Counted from the stretch's first letter, positions 1-54,015 are shown. The stretch: DNA of 54,303 bases from an uncultured Gammaproteobacteria bacterium (GCA_964453605.1 CAYVOI010000002.1:1-54303); one strand, 5' to 3'. Notes: generated by a model not told the origin, from the letters alone. Numbers and translations are program-made.

Positions 1-1080
<1,080 letters not shown>

Positions 1081-1244
1081 AGAATTGTAGAGTGTTGAAG
1101 GCTCTATCAGTTTTGATCATTTTTTACCTGGACGATCAGGACACCACAGGTACCAGCAAGGTACCAGGGCGACCTATAAACCAGTTGCCTCGTTCCGCCA
1201 AAGGCGGACGGGCAGAAACTGACGTACTTGACTCTTCCTATCAC

Positions 1245-31638: not shown

Positions 31639-31754
31639 AAACTCTCTGTAATAATGGTTAAGTACAGCTTAAGCATAGCACTGGGGCCTATAGGGGTCAA
31701 TCAAAAAATCCCGCGACCCTGGGCGAGGGACGCGGGATTTCTTTTTTACACCAG

Positions 31755-41161: not shown

Positions 41162-41236
41162 GGGCGAGTAGCTCAACGGTAGAGCAGCCGTCTTATATAC
41201 GGCCGGTTCATGGTTCGAATCCATGCTCGCCCACCA
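41162..41236 (+). tRNA. tRNA-Ile, anticodon UAU, CCA encoded
   Basis: Hand-folded cloverleaf: GGGCGAG/CTCGCCC acceptor, anticodon arm GCCGT-CTTATAT-ACGGC, and a TTCGAAT T-loop. Confidence 0.88.
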
Positions 41237-45075: not shown

Positions 45076-45149
45076 GCAAGCCTTGACGTATGCAACAAAA
45101 ACCGCTATCCTAAGTAAGCCTTAGAACCTAAGATTTCTCCCTATTTCGT

Positions 45150-45491
45150 ATGACTACCGAAGCTTCAACCACCCGTTTTGATAACATTCAACCCGGCCAG
45201 CTGGTACGAGTGCACCAGCGCATTAAGGAGCAAAACAGCAAGGGTGAGGACAAAGAGCGTATCCAAATTTTTGAAGGTACCGTACTCTCCCGTCATGGTG
45301 GTAGGGGTACAAACGCCACCATCACGGTACGTAAAGTTTCCGACGGCATTGGCGTGGAACGCATCTTCCCCCTTGAACTCCCCACCCTCAGCGAGATTGA
45401 AGTGGTAAAAACCTTCAAGACCAACCGCGCTAAACTCTACCACCTCAAGGGCTACCAAAAGAAGCTCAAAGAGGTGGTGGCCAAAGCTTAA
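45150..45491 (+). CDS. rplS: 50S ribosomal protein L19
   Basis: G..V.V........ER.Q.FEG.V......G...T.TVRK.S.G.GVER.FPL canonical bL19. Confidence 0.93.
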   Translation: MTTEASTTRFDNIQPGQLVRVHQRIKEQNSKGEDKERIQIFEGTVLSRHGGRGTNATITVRKVSDGIGVERIFPLELPTLSEIEVVKTFKTNRAKLYHLKGYQKKLKEVVAKA

Positions 45492-45499
45492 GTTTACAG

Positions 45500-45586
45500 G
45501 CGGACGTGGCGGAACTGGTATACGCGCAGGCTTGAGGTGCCTGTGGGGGCAACCCCGTGGAGGTTCAAGTCCTCTCGTCCGCACCA
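45500..45586 (+). tRNA. tRNA-Leu, anticodon GAG (class II, long variable arm), CCA encoded
   Basis: GCGGACG/CGTCCGC acceptor, anticodon arm CAGGC-TTGAGGT-GCCTG, variable arm GGGGGCAACCCCGT. Confidence 0.9.
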
Positions 45587-45601
45587 CCTCGTACAATGCG
45601 G

Positions 45602-45678
45602 GGACGCTTAGCTCAGCTGGTTAGAGCGTCTCGTTTACACCGAGAAGGTCGGGGGTTCGAATCCCTCAGCGTCCACCA
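45602..45678 (+). tRNA. tRNA-Val, anticodon UAC, CCA encoded
   Basis: GGACGCT/AGCGTCC acceptor and anticodon arm TCTCG-TTTACAC-CGAGA. Confidence 0.9.
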
Positions 45679-45794
45679 TGAAATATGTGCTCGTCTTACT
45701 CACACAACTTCATGGCAAGCCATGAGCACATACTTCATGCCCTGAAGCGGTGCCCAAGACACCTACTTCAGGGCAACACTAACGCTTAACAGCT

Positions 45795-46046
45795 ATGCAT
45801 ATCGTTGTCGGGCTCATCATGGTAGCAGTTGGGTTTTTGCTCGTTTGGAAAACTGAGTGGTTGGTAGAAAACTTTGGCCACGTCGACTGGGCTGAACAGC
45901 ACCTCGGCTCAGATGGCGGCACCAGGCTGTTCTGGAAGCTTATTGGCATACTCATCATACTCATAGGCTTTGGTACCCTAACCGGTATTTTCCAAGATAT
46001 CTTAGTTATCACCTTAAGCCCCCTGTTCCGAGGGGTCCAGAGCTAG
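45795..46046 (+). CDS. Hypothetical 83-aa two-TM membrane protein
   Basis: Two hydrophobic helices flank a short polar loop. No SD is obvious. Confidence 0.5.
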   Translation: MHIVVGLIMVAVGFLLVWKTEWLVENFGHVDWAEQHLGSDGGTRLFWKLIGILIILIGFGTLTGIFQDILVITLSPLFRGVQS

Positions 46047-46051
46047 CTCAC

Positions 46052-46334
46052 GGGCCGATAGCTCAGCCCCGATGCCCTGGTCGGGGCTCCGACAGCTGAG
46101 CTCGTCGGAGCTGGTAGAGCACCGCCTTTGTCCCAAAGCACTAGGCCTATCTACATTGACAAAAGACATCGGGATCCCGACTGATTTTGGTGGGCCCGTA
46201 GCTTAGTGGCAGAGCATCCGGTTTGCATCCGGAAGATAGGGGTTCGATTCCCCTCGGGTCCACCACATGAGCCCACCAAAATCCATCGGGACAACGTGTG
46301 GGGGTCAGGGGTTCGAATCCACTTCGGTCCACCA
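46052..46334 (+). other. Interrupted tRNA-like gene (outer cloverleaf, Ala-like G3:U70, CCA encoded) enclosing tRNA-Ala
   Basis: The 5' part is GGGCCGA TA GCTC AG[44-nt insert]CTGGTA GAGC A CCGCC. The 3' part is TGTGG GGGTC AGGGG TTCGAAT CCACT TCGGTCC A CCA. The acceptor arms are complementary 7/7. Confidence 0.5.
46192..46265 (+). tRNA. tRNA-Ala, anticodon UGC, CCA encoded
   Basis: GGGCCCG/CGGGTCC acceptor with G3:U70, anticodon arm TCCGG-TTTGCAT-CCGGA, T arm AGGGG-TTCGATT-CCCCT. Confidence 0.92.
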
Positions 46335-46476
46335 GCTTATCAAAAATTATAAGCAGTAACCCTGAGAAGGTAACTGTTGTTTTTGTTTTTACTAGGCTCT
46401 GGACTTCGTTACAGAATTGTGCTACTGTCCAACCAGAAAATTGCACCTACACAACCACATATAAGAGGAATGCACC

Positions 46477-47079
46477 ATGGAACAAACAGATTGTTTTTCT
46501 TCGTATACGTATAGCGAAGGCAAAACAGGTGGTGGCCAGTTAGTTGAATTCACCTGCCCGCCTGAAGCTGCCGCAGACGTTAAGGCGTTCTTACAACAGA
46601 ACGTCCGCACCATCAACCCTCCAACTACCTATAAAACCAAGGCCGGACATGGCGCGTACGGCATGTACAGTCGCTATAGCATCAAGCAGCACAGGTACGC
46701 TGGCGGCGGCCCAGACGAAGGGGGCAGCTGGGGCTACATTGAAATTCTCGAAATCAAAAACCCGCCAGATGGCCGCTGGGGTATTATCATCAATGAGTGC
46801 ACAAGTTTACAAGGCGGGGTGTTCAGCGAATGGGAAACGCTGAAGCAGGCGCGGGCAGCGTTTACCAAGTGCCAGAGCACTCTGAGCACCGAGAACGAGT
46901 TCCCCAAGCTTCCCGGGTTCAAGCGCCGTGTTGTCTGTGGCGCACTCAGACCGTGGTTCTACGCCATTGGCGACGAAGAGCTCATAGGCGACTACTCCTT
47001 CCCTGATGGCTGCAAGACGATGCCGTATACCGCTTTGGCCAACAATTCGTGGTCATTAACGACGACGTGCCGGCAATAA
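46477..47079 (+). CDS. Hypothetical 200-aa protein
   Basis: AAGAGGA SD 7 nt upstream and protein-like composition. No motif recognised. Confidence 0.6.
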   Translation: MEQTDCFSSYTYSEGKTGGGQLVEFTCPPEAAADVKAFLQQNVRTINPPTTYKTKAGHGAYGMYSRYSIKQHRYAGGGPDEGGSWGYIEILEIKNPPDGRWGIIINECTSLQGGVFSEWETLKQARAAFTKCQSTLSTENEFPKLPGFKRRVVCGALRPWFYAIGDEELIGDYSFPDGCKTMPYTALANNSWSLTTTCRQ

Positions 47080-50041: not shown

Positions 50042-50159
50042 TTCTCGCGCTGGCCTACTTTCCCACAGACTAATGTCTGAGTATCATTGGCGCAAATGGG
50101 CTTAACTGCTCTGTTCGGGATGGGAAGAGGTGTTGCCCCATCGCTTGAAGCACGAGAAC
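50042..50159 (-). rRNA. rrf: 5S rRNA
   Basis: The revcomp contains CCCATCCCGAACAGAGCAGTTAAGC (loop B/helix III region). The terminal helix I pairs TTCTCGTGC with GCGCGAGAA. Confidence 0.9.

Positions 50160-50399: not shown

Positions 50400-54015
<3,616 letters not shown>

What the first reader, a model, noticed from the sequence alone, without database searches (positions are those of the whole stretch)
46052..46334. A complete tRNA-Ala(UGC) nested inside a second, interrupted tRNA-like gene whose halves still pair
Seen directly: 46192-46265 is a canonical tRNA-Ala(UGC) with G3:U70 and an encoded CCA.
- **Outer cloverleaf.** The tRNA-Ala lies between two segments that together form a second cloverleaf. 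The 5' part is 46052-46066 plus 46111-46126 (GGGCCGA TA GCTC AG..CTGGTA GAGC A CCGCC). The 3' part is 46297-46334 (TGTGG GGGTC AGGGG TTCGAAT CCACT TCGGTCC A CCA).
- **Pairing of the outer halves.** The outer acceptor arms pair 7/7 across about 270 nt and again give G3:U70. The outer anticodon-stem strands pair 4/5.
- **Helices below the outer anticodon stem.** A 6-bp helix TGTCCC/GGGACA (46129-46134 with 46288-46293) follows, separated by a 3-nt bulge on the 3' strand (ACG, 46294-46296). A perfect 13-bp stem GATTTTGGTGGGC/GCCCACCAAAATC (46183-46195 with 46271-46283) then closes off the inner tRNA. An 8-nt direct repeat CATCGGGA (46167-46174 and 46284-46291) flanks that module.

So the ~170 nt (46127-46296) lying between the outer anticodon-stem strands, where the anticodon loop would be, are organised like an intron or insert carrying its own tRNA. 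I know of no described bacterial tRNA gene with this layout.

Inference, alternatives:
- (i) It is an intron-containing or cis-split tRNA whose halves stay base-paired after RNase P/Z release the inner tRNA.
- (ii) It is a small tRNA-bearing insertion with a target duplication.
- (iii) It is a decaying pseudo-tRNA.

Arguing for decay: there is a G-A mismatch in the outer T stem and C-U at 31:39, and I cannot reconstruct a clean 7-nt anticodon loop with a purine at position 37.
Basis: partly seen in the sequence, partly recalled or inferred. Interest (0 to 1): 0.8.

Follow-up and report, generated by a model that had tools for sequence, protein, structure and literature searches.

The report
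tRNA gene split by tRNA-carrying mobile hairpin
A bacterial alanine-tRNA gene has been broken in its anticodon loop by a small palindromic mobile element that carries a complete spare alanine-tRNA gene, and the same trick recurs across many uncultured (CPR) bacteria, where intact copies also encode a tiny GIY-YIG nuclease.

Summary
An independent assembly is identical over 491 nt, and several related genomes show the same layout.

**What it is**
- The outer gene is the native tRNA-Ala(UGC) of this syntenic site. Relatives carry it uninterrupted.
- It is split exactly between anticodon positions 35 and 36 (TTTG^CAA) by a 161-nt insert (46131-46291).
- The insert is two side-by-side hairpins with TCCCG.../...CGGGA feet. 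The second hairpin's loop holds the complete inner tRNA-Ala(UGC).

**The family**
- The same architecture occurs in at least 17 CPR genomes from about 10 candidate phyla, in tRNA-Ala(UGC) and tRNA-Thr(UGU). The inner tRNA always has the outer's identity.
- In full-length copies the first hairpin loop encodes an 81-aa stand-alone GIY-YIG nuclease. It resembles the recently described Ssn hairpin-binding ssDNA nucleases.

**State of the window copy**
- It has lost the nuclease.
- Its outer gene is decaying: a second 44-nt double hairpin in the D-loop, 2 extra nt in the anticodon stem, and a T-stem mismatch.

**Reading.** This is a selfish insertion that brings a replacement for the gene it breaks, not a spliced intron. 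About half of the outer genes in other genomes are truncated or broken.

I found no published description of the tRNA-nesting form.

The parts
45795..46046 (+). Conserved 83-aa ORF (no Pfam hit). It is the syntenic marker immediately upstream of the tRNA-Ala site.
   Evidence: Orthologues in L082, L085 and L088 are 49-81% identical. The order L19, tRNA-Leu, tRNA-Val, ORF, tRNA-Ala is conserved.
46052..46066 (+). Outer (native) tRNA-Ala, 5' exon part 1: acceptor 5' strand GGGCCGA, TA, D-stem GCTC, AG.
   Evidence: Identical to the start of the uninterrupted orthologue L088 5027-5102.
46067..46086 (+). D-loop insertion, hairpin 1 (CCCCGA tgccctgg TCGGGG), inserted at CAG^CTG.
   Evidence: I12. 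Absent from L085 and L088.
46087..46110 (+). D-loop insertion, hairpin 2 (CTCCGAC agctgagctc GTCGGAG).
   Evidence: I14. Absent from L085 and L088. Comparable hairpin pairs lie in the D-arm of L102 and the T-loop of L155.
46111..46130 (+). Outer tRNA-Ala, 5' exon part 2: CTGGTA GAGC A CCGCC TTTG, ending at anticodon position 35.
   Evidence: 100% identical to L085.
46131..46174 (+). Element module A, a 44-nt remnant (TCCCAAAG...CATCGGGA). In full-length relatives this hairpin's loop holds the GIY-YIG gene.
   Evidence: No GIY-YIG coding remnant in the window (tblastn).
46175..46191 (+). Element module B, 5' foot TCCCGA plus leader strand of the stem that encloses the inner tRNA (GATTTTGGT).
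   Evidence: (I1).
46192..46265 (+). Inner cargo tRNA-Ala(UGC), 74 nt, G3:U70, encoded CCA. Presumed to be the functional gene.
   Evidence: Identical in L085, L086 and L115. 85% identical to the cargo tRNA of a nuclease-bearing Saccharibacteria element (L176). Only 78% identical to the outer gene.
46266..46291 (+). Module B trailer (CATGA GCCC ACCAAAATC CA) plus 3' foot TCGGGA.
   Evidence: (I1).
46292..46334 (+). Outer tRNA-Ala 3' exon, from C36 to CCA. It is decayed: CGTGTGG instead of GGCGG, and T-stem CCACT instead of CCCCT.
   Evidence: In-silico removal of both inserts gives a frame-shifted cloverleaf that ARAGORN calls 'Cys(gca)'.

Best explanation
**What happened (shown by comparison)**
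- A native tRNA-Ala(UGC) gene was invaded at the centre of its anticodon loop (TTTG^CAA, positions 35/36).
- The invader belongs to a family of palindromic double-hairpin mobile elements that is common in CPR/Patescibacteria.
- The scaffold is [TCCCGA...loop A...TCG(A/G)GGA][TCC(C/T)CGA...loop B...TCGGGA].
- In full-length copies loop A encodes an 81-aa single-domain GIY-YIG nuclease.
- Loop B holds a complete tRNA of the same identity as the gene that was broken, enclosed by a leader/trailer stem.

**State of the window copy (shown)**
- It has lost the nuclease gene.
- Its outer gene has since picked up a second, cargo-less double hairpin in the D-loop, and point defects.

**Consequences (inferred)**
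- The insert is not spliced out.
- The inner tRNA is released from the transcript by RNase P and 3' processing, and does the decoding.
- The outer halves are a pseudogene.

**How it moves (inferred, by analogy with Ssn nucleases; PMC11893778)**
- Ssn nucleases bind TCCCG/CGGGA-type hairpins in single-stranded DNA and cut a few nt upstream.
- Here the nuclease would act on the hairpin feet or at hairpin-apex targets in ssDNA.
- Repair or recombination would then copy the element, together with its spare gene, into new alleles.
- Carrying the spare makes insertion into an essential single-copy gene survivable.
For: 1. **An empty site exists.** L088/L089/L090 and L093 carry an uninterrupted tRNA-Ala at the same syntenic position. 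It is 96% identical to the joined outer exons.
2. **The same insert occurs with perfect exons** in L085, L086 and L115.
3. **The junction is CPR-specific.** The motif TGGTAGAGC-N6-TTTG|TCCCG found 28 places in 185,579 species genomes. About 19 are interrupted tRNAs, nearly all in CPR phyla. All have the same two-module architecture. All that are complete carry an inner tRNA of the same identity: Ala in Ala, and Thr(UGU) in Thr four times.
4. **Long copies carry an ORF in loop A that is a GIY-YIG domain** (Pfam PF01541, E = 1e-12 to 1e-17). The nearest solved structures are stand-alone UPF0213 proteins.
5. **This ORF family is tied to tRNA genes in general.**
   - Of its 80 best genomic relatives, 66 have a complete tRNA within about 700 nt.
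   - 74 of the 80 have a tRNA or a T-arm motif.
   - 46 of the 80 have a GTCCCG...CGGGA hairpin.
6. **The stem around the inner tRNA covaries.**
   - 94.7% of cells are paired, against 56% in shuffles.
   - 11 of 12 pairs show changes on both sides.
   - The covariation score is 1.06 against 0.24 (0 of 500 shuffles reach it).
7. **Outer genes decay.** Only 9 of about 17 outer genes give a recognisable tRNA when joined in silico. The others lack the 3' exon or carry further inserts. The window's own outer gene is defective.
8. **In protein-coding targets an intact duplicate of the broken 5' part follows the element** (rpmE in L172, tpiA in L183, a CQNC-motif gene in L255 and others). Compensation by duplication is therefore the family's general habit.
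9. **Serial re-invasion** leaves stacks of orphan 5' halves, each ending ...TTTG|TCCCG (L140, L157, L168).
Against: - There are no RNA data, so non-splicing is inferred and not shown.
- The window holds only 54 kb. I cannot show that the inner tRNA is the genome's only tRNA-Ala(UGC).
- Nine outer genes are still perfect when joined in silico. That fits recent insertion, but it would also fit selection on a spliced product.
- The window copy has no nuclease, and none is encoded elsewhere in the window. Its link to the GIY-YIG gene rests on shared architecture with other genomes.
- The hairpins do not match the published Ssn-related motif. The regex hits 0 times in the window and in 1 of 80 nuclease loci.
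- I could not test whether the ORFs fall in the Ssn clade (cd10448).
- GIY-YIG enzymes cut but do not join DNA, so the insertion chemistry is unknown.
- In L155 the inner and outer anticodon arms are identical. A simple 'immune replacement copy' model does not explain how the inner gene escapes cutting.
Confidence: 0.8

Rival explanations
1. It is a genuine intron of a new kind. The conserved G|UCCCG...CGGGA|C boundaries are recognised at the RNA level, the insert is excised and the exons ligated, so that both the outer and the inner tRNA are functional.
For: - The boundaries are precise and conserved.
- The intron ends pair with each other.
- 9 of about 17 outer genes are perfect when joined in silico.
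- The 5' exon is 100% identical between the window and L085, although ribosomal protein L19 is only 77% identical.
Against: - No Rfam intron or ribozyme family hits the region, even at E <= 10.
- The 5' exon ends in G and the insert ends in A, which does not fit group I.
- The two junctions lie directly opposite each other in one continuous helix, so there is no bulge-helix-bulge.
- An intact same-identity tRNA is always retained.
- Many outer genes are truncated or further disrupted.
- Protein-gene insertions come with a duplicated intact copy instead of an in-frame exon junction.
- Covariation shows that the feet pair within each module, not across the whole insert (L158, L165, L168).
Confidence: 0.07
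2. After RNase P and 3' processing release the inner tRNA, the two outer halves stay paired as a two-piece tRNA-like RNA. Because it has G3:U70 it can still be charged by AlaRS, and it has a non-decoding role, comparable to the tRNA-like domain of two-piece tmRNA.
For: - The outer acceptor stem is 7/7 with G3:U70.
- It differs from the inner stem by compensatory changes at 6:67 and 7:66.
- The weak Rfam hit to permuted tmRNA covers only the T-arm (25.9 bits against a gathering score of 47).
Against: - The compensatory differences are explained by the outer gene being the native tRNA.
- In the window the T-stem has a G-A mismatch and the D-loop carries 44 extra nt.
- In many genomes the 3' half is missing altogether.
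Confidence: 0.03
3. It is a scar of integrase-mediated integration and excision at a tRNA gene, that is, attL/attR-type partial duplications left by a prophage or integrative element.
For: - tRNA anticodon loops are classic integrase targets.
- Orphan tRNA pieces accumulate at these loci (L102, L104, L140).
Against: - Integration of that kind duplicates the 3' part of the same tRNA. It does not leave a matching 5' and 3' half around a different, complete tRNA.
- The insert is 161 nt with palindromic ends, and there is no integrase nearby.
- The same small architecture recurs in many phyla, with a GIY-YIG gene and not an integrase.
Confidence: 0.03
4. It is an assembly chimera that joins reads from two tRNA-Ala genes.
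For: None beyond the general risk with repeated tRNA sequence in metagenomes.
Against: - A second assembler gives the identical 491 nt.
- Contigs from ENA, NCBI and JGI samples of another species show the same nesting.
- More than 15 further genomes show the same nesting.
Confidence: 0.01

Closest known systems
Ssn nucleases and their hairpin repeats (NTS/SRM), Chenal et al. 2025, Nat Commun (PMC11893778)
   Same: - A single-domain GIY-YIG protein of about 80-94 aa.
- It is associated with hairpin repeats whose palindrome core is TCCCG...CGGGA (NTS = CGTCATTCCCGCG..GCGGGAATC).
- The hairpin loop can carry extra sequence.
- The authors note an IS-like repeat-gene-repeat layout.
   Different: - Here the gene lies inside one split hairpin, not between two complete repeats.
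- The hairpins fail the published SRM motif (GTC is fused directly to CCCG).
- The elements sit inside tRNA genes and carry a tRNA.
- The word tRNA does not occur in that paper's main text.
- Membership of the ORFs in cd10448 is untested.
Free-standing GIY-YIG homing endonuclease SegB in the phage T4 tRNA gene cluster (PMC2330249)
   Same: - A GIY-YIG nuclease gene embedded among tRNA genes.
- It promotes inheritance of itself together with neighbouring tRNA genes, without being a self-splicing intron (abstract).
   Different: - SegB is a multi-domain phage protein located between genes.
- It does not split a tRNA gene.
- It has no hairpin scaffold.
- It does not nest a replacement tRNA.
Group I introns in bacterial tRNA anticodon loops (tRNA-Leu UAA, tRNA-fMet, tRNA-Arg, tRNA-Ile; reviewed in PMC3984707)
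   Same: - An insertion in the anticodon loop of a bacterial tRNA gene.
- Sometimes it carries a homing endonuclease gene.
   Different: - No ribozyme core and no Rfam hit.
- The boundary nucleotides do not fit.
- The non-cargo sequence is too short (87 nt in the window).
- The element carries a spare tRNA instead of splicing.
Archaeal tRNA introns at non-canonical positions and their transposition (Fujishima et al. 2010, cited in PMC10714607)
   Same: - Several small inserts in the D-, anticodon- and T-loops of one tRNA gene.
- The inserts behave as mobile units.
   Different: - The host is bacterial.
- There is no bulge-helix-bulge motif.
- An intact spare gene accompanies the insert.
- Outer genes decay.
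Insertion sequences that target the apex of REP/PU hairpins (IS1397-type), and IS200/IS605 or REP/RAYT hairpin elements (own knowledge; the latter also discussed in PMC11893778)
   Same: - Hairpin-defined ends, no target duplication, and short non-autonomous hairpin derivatives.
- The targets are centres of small palindromes: TTG^CAA, CAG^CTG, TTC^GA(A/G).
   Different: - The enzyme is a GIY-YIG nuclease, not a Y1 or DDE transposase.
- The element is not enriched genome-wide in this window.

Membership tests
Ssn / SRM hairpin-nuclease elements | Single-domain GIY-YIG protein of about 90 aa encoded at the locus | tested here: not met
   The window has no such ORF (tblastn best E = 0.29). Full-length relatives of the same element do have one: 81 aa, PF01541, E about 1e-16.
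Ssn / SRM hairpin-nuclease elements | Hairpin repeats with a TCCCG/CGGGA palindromic core flanking the gene | tested here: met
   In the window: TCCCGA 46175-46180 with TCGGGA 46286-46291, and TCCC 46131-46134 with GGGA 46171-46174. Among nuclease loci, 46 of 80 carry GTCCCG...CGGGA.
Ssn / SRM hairpin-nuclease elements | Match to the published SRM search motif HGTCWY..YYVSBRH..WNVSBRG..RNCYNB | tested here: not met
   The regex recognises the NTS control. It finds 0 matches in the window and matches in only 1 of 80 nuclease loci.
Ssn / SRM hairpin-nuclease elements | Protein belongs to CDD family cd10448 and cleaves only single-stranded DNA next to its hairpin | not testable with these tools
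   No CDD search and no SsnA sequence were available. The nearest solved structures are UPF0213 proteins, at E = 1e-5.
Group I intron in tRNA | Conserved ribozyme core (P3-P9) detectable by the Rfam Intron_gpI model | tested here: not met
   No intron or ribozyme family hit at E <= 10 in 45950-46480.
Group I intron in tRNA | 5' exon ends in U (U.G pair in P1) and the intron ends in G | tested here: not met
   The 5' exon ends ...TTTG and the insert ends ...GGGA.
Archaeal-type (bulge-helix-bulge) tRNA intron | Two 3-nt bulges separated by a 4-bp helix at the exon-intron junctions | tested here: not met
   By inspection, the two junctions lie opposite each other in one continuous helix (G35-C36 stacked on TCCCGA/TCGGGA). 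The rRNAs are bacterial.
Homing-type mobile insertion in a conserved gene | Occupied and empty alleles of the same site in related genomes | tested here: met
   Empty: L088-L090 and L093. Occupied: the window, L085, L086 and L115.
Homing-type mobile insertion in a conserved gene | The element encodes a site-specific nuclease that cuts the empty allele | not testable with these tools
   A nuclease gene is present in long copies. Its substrate is unknown.
Integrase att-site duplication at a tRNA gene | A recombinase gene, plus a direct repeat of the tRNA 3' part derived from the same tRNA | tested here: not met
   There is no recombinase in the insert or its flanks. The inner and outer 3' halves are 86% identical, with compensatory differences that match their own 5' halves.
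tRNA pseudogene (outer gene in the window) | Cannot form a canonical cloverleaf with a 7-nt anticodon loop, even after the inserts are removed | tested here: met
   ARAGORN folds the joined exons only as a 78-nt 'Cys(gca)', with a mismatched 6-bp anticodon stem and a T-stem mismatch. The L085 exons give a clean tRNA-Ala(UGC).

The most novel reading that the evidence does not exclude
The window holds one decayed copy of a class of mobile elements that has not been described as such. These are palindromic double hairpins, mobilised by a minimal GIY-YIG (Ssn-like) nuclease, that insert at the apex of hairpin-forming sites. Their targets are the D-, anticodon- and T-loops of tRNA genes, and TTG^CAA-type sites in protein-coding genes. 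They make insertion into essential genes survivable by carrying an intact copy of the gene they break, or by duplicating it. Related nuclease genes sit beside tRNA genes with hairpin-substituted partial tRNA copies in many bacterial phyla, so the phenomenon would be bacteria-wide and a recurrent route of tRNA gene replacement.
Probability: 0.5. Interest if true: 0.85.

Novelty: new variant of a known kind. Interest (0 to 1): 0.75.

Why it matters
- **A different survival strategy for a selfish element.** It can live inside an essential single-copy tRNA gene without being able to splice, because it brings its own spare. That differs from both introns and integrase elements.
- **tRNA annotation in CPR genomes.** It explains orphan tRNA halves and odd tRNA calls there, and it warns that tRNA gene trees in these lineages can reflect element-borne replacement rather than descent.
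- **A possible biological role for part of the Ssn-like family.** These minimal GIY-YIG nucleases have so far been characterised mainly in Neisseria.
- **A link to CPR rRNA insertions.** The elements add to the known tendency of CPR structural-RNA genes to collect insertions.
- **A natural case for enzymology.** Hairpins with very large loops (a whole gene, or a whole tRNA) may serve as substrates, which bears on the proposed use of these enzymes as programmable ssDNA cutters.

Tried and rejected
- **Group I intron, ribozymes and permuted tmRNA.** Only a sub-threshold tmRNA hit, on the inner T-arm.
- **Bulge-helix-bulge intron.** Rejected by inspection.
- **Genome-wide REP-like repeat.** NCCCG...CGGGN' pairs in the window number 65 per strand, against 64.4 in shuffles, so the hairpin feet are specific to this locus.
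- **The NTS-like hairpin at 31709-31737.** It is an ordinary bidirectional terminator.
- **Published SRM regex.** No match.
- **Promoter and terminator scan of 45100-46600.** Nothing informative.
- **L19-based scan of species genomes.** Closer ones came from the protein database.
- **Viral contigs.** No copy of the junction.
- **First stem alignment.** MAFFT put it out of register, so I redid it with a neutral linker.
- **Stem for L085.** The automatically chosen partner was spurious, and I replaced it with the homologous position.
- **Literature.** Ten searches found no description of a tRNA nested in a tRNA, nor of GIY-YIG/hairpin elements in bacterial chromosomal tRNA genes. The library is limited to open-access papers and bioRxiv.

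Full report
**1. Is it there?**

Yes.
- ARAGORN and Rfam call a canonical 74-nt tRNA-Ala(UGC) at 46192-46265.
- The long inverted repeat around the inner tRNA (46175-46195 with 46271-46291, 21 nt, 90% complementary, 13 bp perfect) and the CATCGGGA repeat are confirmed.
- The region folds better than all of 100 shuffles (z = -3.8).
- A Logan assembly of run SRR12313479 is identical over 491 nt, so a chimeric assembly is very unlikely.

**2. Host and context.**
- The window is from a CPR/Patescibacteria genome.
- It has bacterial rRNAs with an over-long 23S gene, and the 16S and 23S genes are unlinked.
- The closest L19 proteins are from Kerfeldbacteria and related MAGs, at 77-82% identity.
- The gene order is CCA-adding enzyme, RluD-like pseudouridine synthase, kinase, glycosyltransferase, L19, tRNA-Leu, tRNA-Val, an 83-aa ORF, then the tRNA-Ala locus.
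- This order is conserved in relatives.

**3. Orthologous loci settle the anatomy.**

| Locus | State of the site |
|---|---|
| L088/L089/L090, L093 | One uninterrupted 76-nt tRNA-Ala(UGC) with the outer gene's acceptor stem (GGGCCGA/TCGGTCC), 96% identical to the joined outer exons |
| L085/L086/L115 | Same nesting as the window, with flawless exons |
| L082-L084 | The outer gene carries a different tRNA-Ala(UGC) inside a D-loop insert, plus a 32-nt insert at the same 35/36 site |

- In L085/L086/L115 the exons read GGGCCGATAGCTCAGCTGGTAGAGCACCGCCTTTG | insert | CAAGGCGGGGGTCAGGGGTTCGAATCCCCTTCGGTCCACCA.
- ARAGORN folds the joined exons as a perfect tRNA-Ala(UGC).
- The insertion point is therefore between G35 and C36.
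- The window's insert is 46131-46291 (161 nt).
- Compared with L085, the window's outer gene has three defects:
  - a 44-nt insert in the D-loop (46067-46110);
  - two extra nucleotides in the 3' strand of the anticodon stem;
  - a C-to-A change in the T-stem.
- With both inserts removed it still does not give a proper tRNA-Ala.

**4. The insert is a defined element.**

It consists of two adjacent hairpin modules.
- Module A is 46131-46174 (TCCCAAAG...CATCGGGA).
- Module B is 46175-46291 (TCCCGA-CT-GATTTTGGT [tRNA] CATGAGCCC-ACCAAAATC-CA-TCGGGA).

I scanned one genome per species (185,579 species) for TGGTAGAGC-N6-TTTGTCCCG.
- This gave 28 places. About 9 are chance hits inside ORFs.
- About 19 are interrupted tRNA genes.
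- Nearly all are in CPR phyla: Saccharibacteria, Yanofsky-, Taylor-, Buchanan-, Wildermuth-, Gottesman-, Kerfeld- and Doudnabacteria, and Microgenomates.
- A few are in bins with other labels.

All share one plan: 5' exon ...TTTG | TCCCGA-loop A-TCG(A/G)GGA | TCC(C/T)CGA-stem-[complete tRNA]-stem-TCGGGA | CAA... (Ala) or TAA... (Thr UGU).
- The inner tRNA always has the identity of the outer one.
- Variants with TCCCGC/GCGGGA feet in module A but TCCTCGA/TCGGGA in module B (L158, L165) show that each module pairs within itself.

**5. The stem around the cargo tRNA is maintained.**

I tested twelve leader positions against their trailer partners in 11 distinct elements.
- 94.7% of cells are paired, against 56% in shuffles.
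- 11 of 12 pairs change on both sides.
- The covariation score is 1.06, against 0.24 in shuffles (0 of 500 reach it).
- Sliding the partner by one column gives at most 0.32.
- Caveat: the partner offset was chosen by best pairing.

It does not say whether the constraint acts on RNA or on single-stranded DNA.

**6. Full-length copies encode a nuclease.**
- In L151/L187, L157/L170, L161, L162, L173, L175, L176 and L190, loop A holds an 81-aa ORF.
- It is a stand-alone GIY-YIG domain (PF01541, E = 1e-12 to 1e-17).
- Its nearest solved structures are the UPF0213 proteins BH0048 and EF2693.
- The window has no trace of it. Its 44-nt module A is a remnant.
- A profile of four such ORFs finds 542 relatives in species genomes. 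Among the best 80:
  - 66 have a complete tRNA within about 700 nt;
  - 74 have a tRNA or a T-arm motif;
  - 46 carry a GTCCCG...CGGGA hairpin.
- Outside CPR the usual layout is [intact tRNA][ORF][partial copy of the same tRNA whose anticodon arm is replaced by the hairpin], or the mirror image. Many tRNA identities and phyla are involved.

**7. Relation to the literature.**
- Chenal et al. 2025 (PMC11893778) describe the Ssn family. These are about 94-aa single-domain GIY-YIG enzymes.
- They bind a hairpin repeat (NTS, CGTCATTCCCGCG..GCGGGAATC) only as ssDNA and cut a few nucleotides upstream.
- They tolerate any loop, and they often lie between two repeats, like an IS.
- Size, domain, the TCCCG/CGGGA core and the nuclease-plus-hairpin association match.
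- The published degenerate motif does not match, and I could not test the clade assignment.
- That paper does not mention tRNA.
- Ten searches found no description of the nested-tRNA arrangement.
- The closest functional analogue is phage T4 SegB, a GIY-YIG homing endonuclease in a tRNA cluster (PMC2330249).

**8. Spliced intron or replacement?**

Several lines favour replacement.
- No ribozyme or BHB features are present (and inspection).
- An intact same-identity tRNA is always retained.
- Only 9 of about 17 outer genes can be joined into a tRNA. The others have lost the 3' exon or carry more inserts, for example a T-loop insert at TTC^GAG in L155.
- Serial invasions leave orphan 5' halves, each ending TTTG|TCCCG (L140, L157, L168).
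- Cargo-less double hairpins occur at TTG^CAA sites near the 5' ends of protein-coding genes.
  - Each is followed, a few nucleotides later, by a fresh complete start of the same gene (rpmE in L172, tpiA in L183, a CQNC-motif gene in L255 and relatives).
  - So the family compensates by duplication and not by splicing.

The perfect exons in some genomes fit recent spread.
- The cargo tRNA is 100% identical between the window and L085, although L19 is only 77% identical.
- The cargo tRNA's next relative (85%) is the cargo of a Saccharibacteria element.

**9. Targets.**
- The insertion points are centres of small palindromes at the tips of hairpin-forming sequence:
  - TTG^CAA in the anticodon loop;
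  - CAG^CTG in the D-loop of the window;
  - TTC^GA(A/G) in the T-loop.
- The element scaffold is itself two-fold symmetric, with centre GGA|TCC.
- This, together with the ssDNA specificity of Ssn enzymes, suggests action on single-stranded DNA hairpins. That is inference.

**10. Verdict.**
- The window copy is an old, nuclease-less, decaying example.
- The class it belongs to seems undescribed in its tRNA-nesting form.
- It is worth experimental follow-up.

Noticed in passing
window 50403-54012 (-), 50042-50157 (-), 1-1083 (-): The 23S rRNA gene spans 3,610 nt against a 2,925-nt model, so it carries about 700 nt of insertions. No ORF of 90 aa or more lies inside them. The 16S gene lies about 49 kb away from the 23S-5S pair (unlinked rRNA genes).
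   Followed up: partly
window 41162-41236; also L091 446-520: A tRNA-Ile with anticodon UAU is encoded next to tRNA-Val(GAC). Most bacteria read AUA with a lysidine-modified CAU tRNA, so this is an uncommon decoding solution.
   Followed up: no
L170-L249 (for example L204, L206, L213, L221, L233, L240, L245): Outside CPR, relatives of the GIY-YIG ORF sit between an intact tRNA and a partial copy of the same tRNA. In the partial copy the anticodon arm (or part of the D-arm) is replaced by a 17-nt hairpin (G)TCCCG-loop-CGGGA(A). This occurs in Bacteroidota, Desulfobacterota, Chloroflexota, Acidobacteriota, Poribacteria and others, and for at least 15 tRNA identities.
   Followed up: partly
L172, L183, L185; L250-L273 (for example L255, L251, L261, L268): Cargo-less or nuclease-bearing double hairpins also sit at TTG^CAA-type sites in or near protein-coding genes. 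In rpmE (L172), tpiA (L183) and a small CQNC-motif gene, an orphan 5' gene fragment precedes the element. A complete new gene start follows 8-12 nt after it.
   Followed up: partly
L140 1727-2169; L168; L157 6023-6600: Stacks of two or three orphan tRNA 5' halves, each ending ...TTTG|TCCCG, lie upstream of one intact tRNA. Only one 3' half follows downstream. This looks like repeated invasion of successive replacement tRNAs, with loss of the 3' halves.
   Followed up: partly
L082 4989-5252 (also L083, L084, L092); L101/L103: In these genomes the replacement tRNA-Ala sits in a D-loop insert with different, non-TCCCGA ends, enclosed by a 10-bp stem. L082 also has a 32-nt insert (TC...GA) at the 35/36 site. 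This may be a second, unrelated kind of tRNA-bearing insert.
   Followed up: no
L159, L164, L175, L169, L273: Copies of the element occur in bins labelled Thermodesulfovibrionia, Gammaproteobacteria, Nanoarchaeota and Woesearchaeota. These could be mis-binned CPR contigs or real occurrences outside CPR, including DPANN archaea.
   Followed up: no
window 46266-46278; L152, L151, L158, L165: In several elements a short extra segment lies between the CCA end of the cargo tRNA and the trailer stem (GAGCCCACCA in the window). It repeats the 3' acceptor/CCA sequence and can pair with the first 4 nt of the tRNA. This gives a structure that competes with the acceptor stem.
   Followed up: no
window 31709-31737: A hairpin TCCCGCG...CGCGGGA, flanked by an A-run and a T-run between convergent genes, resembles the NTS core. 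It looks like an ordinary bidirectional terminator.
   Followed up: yes
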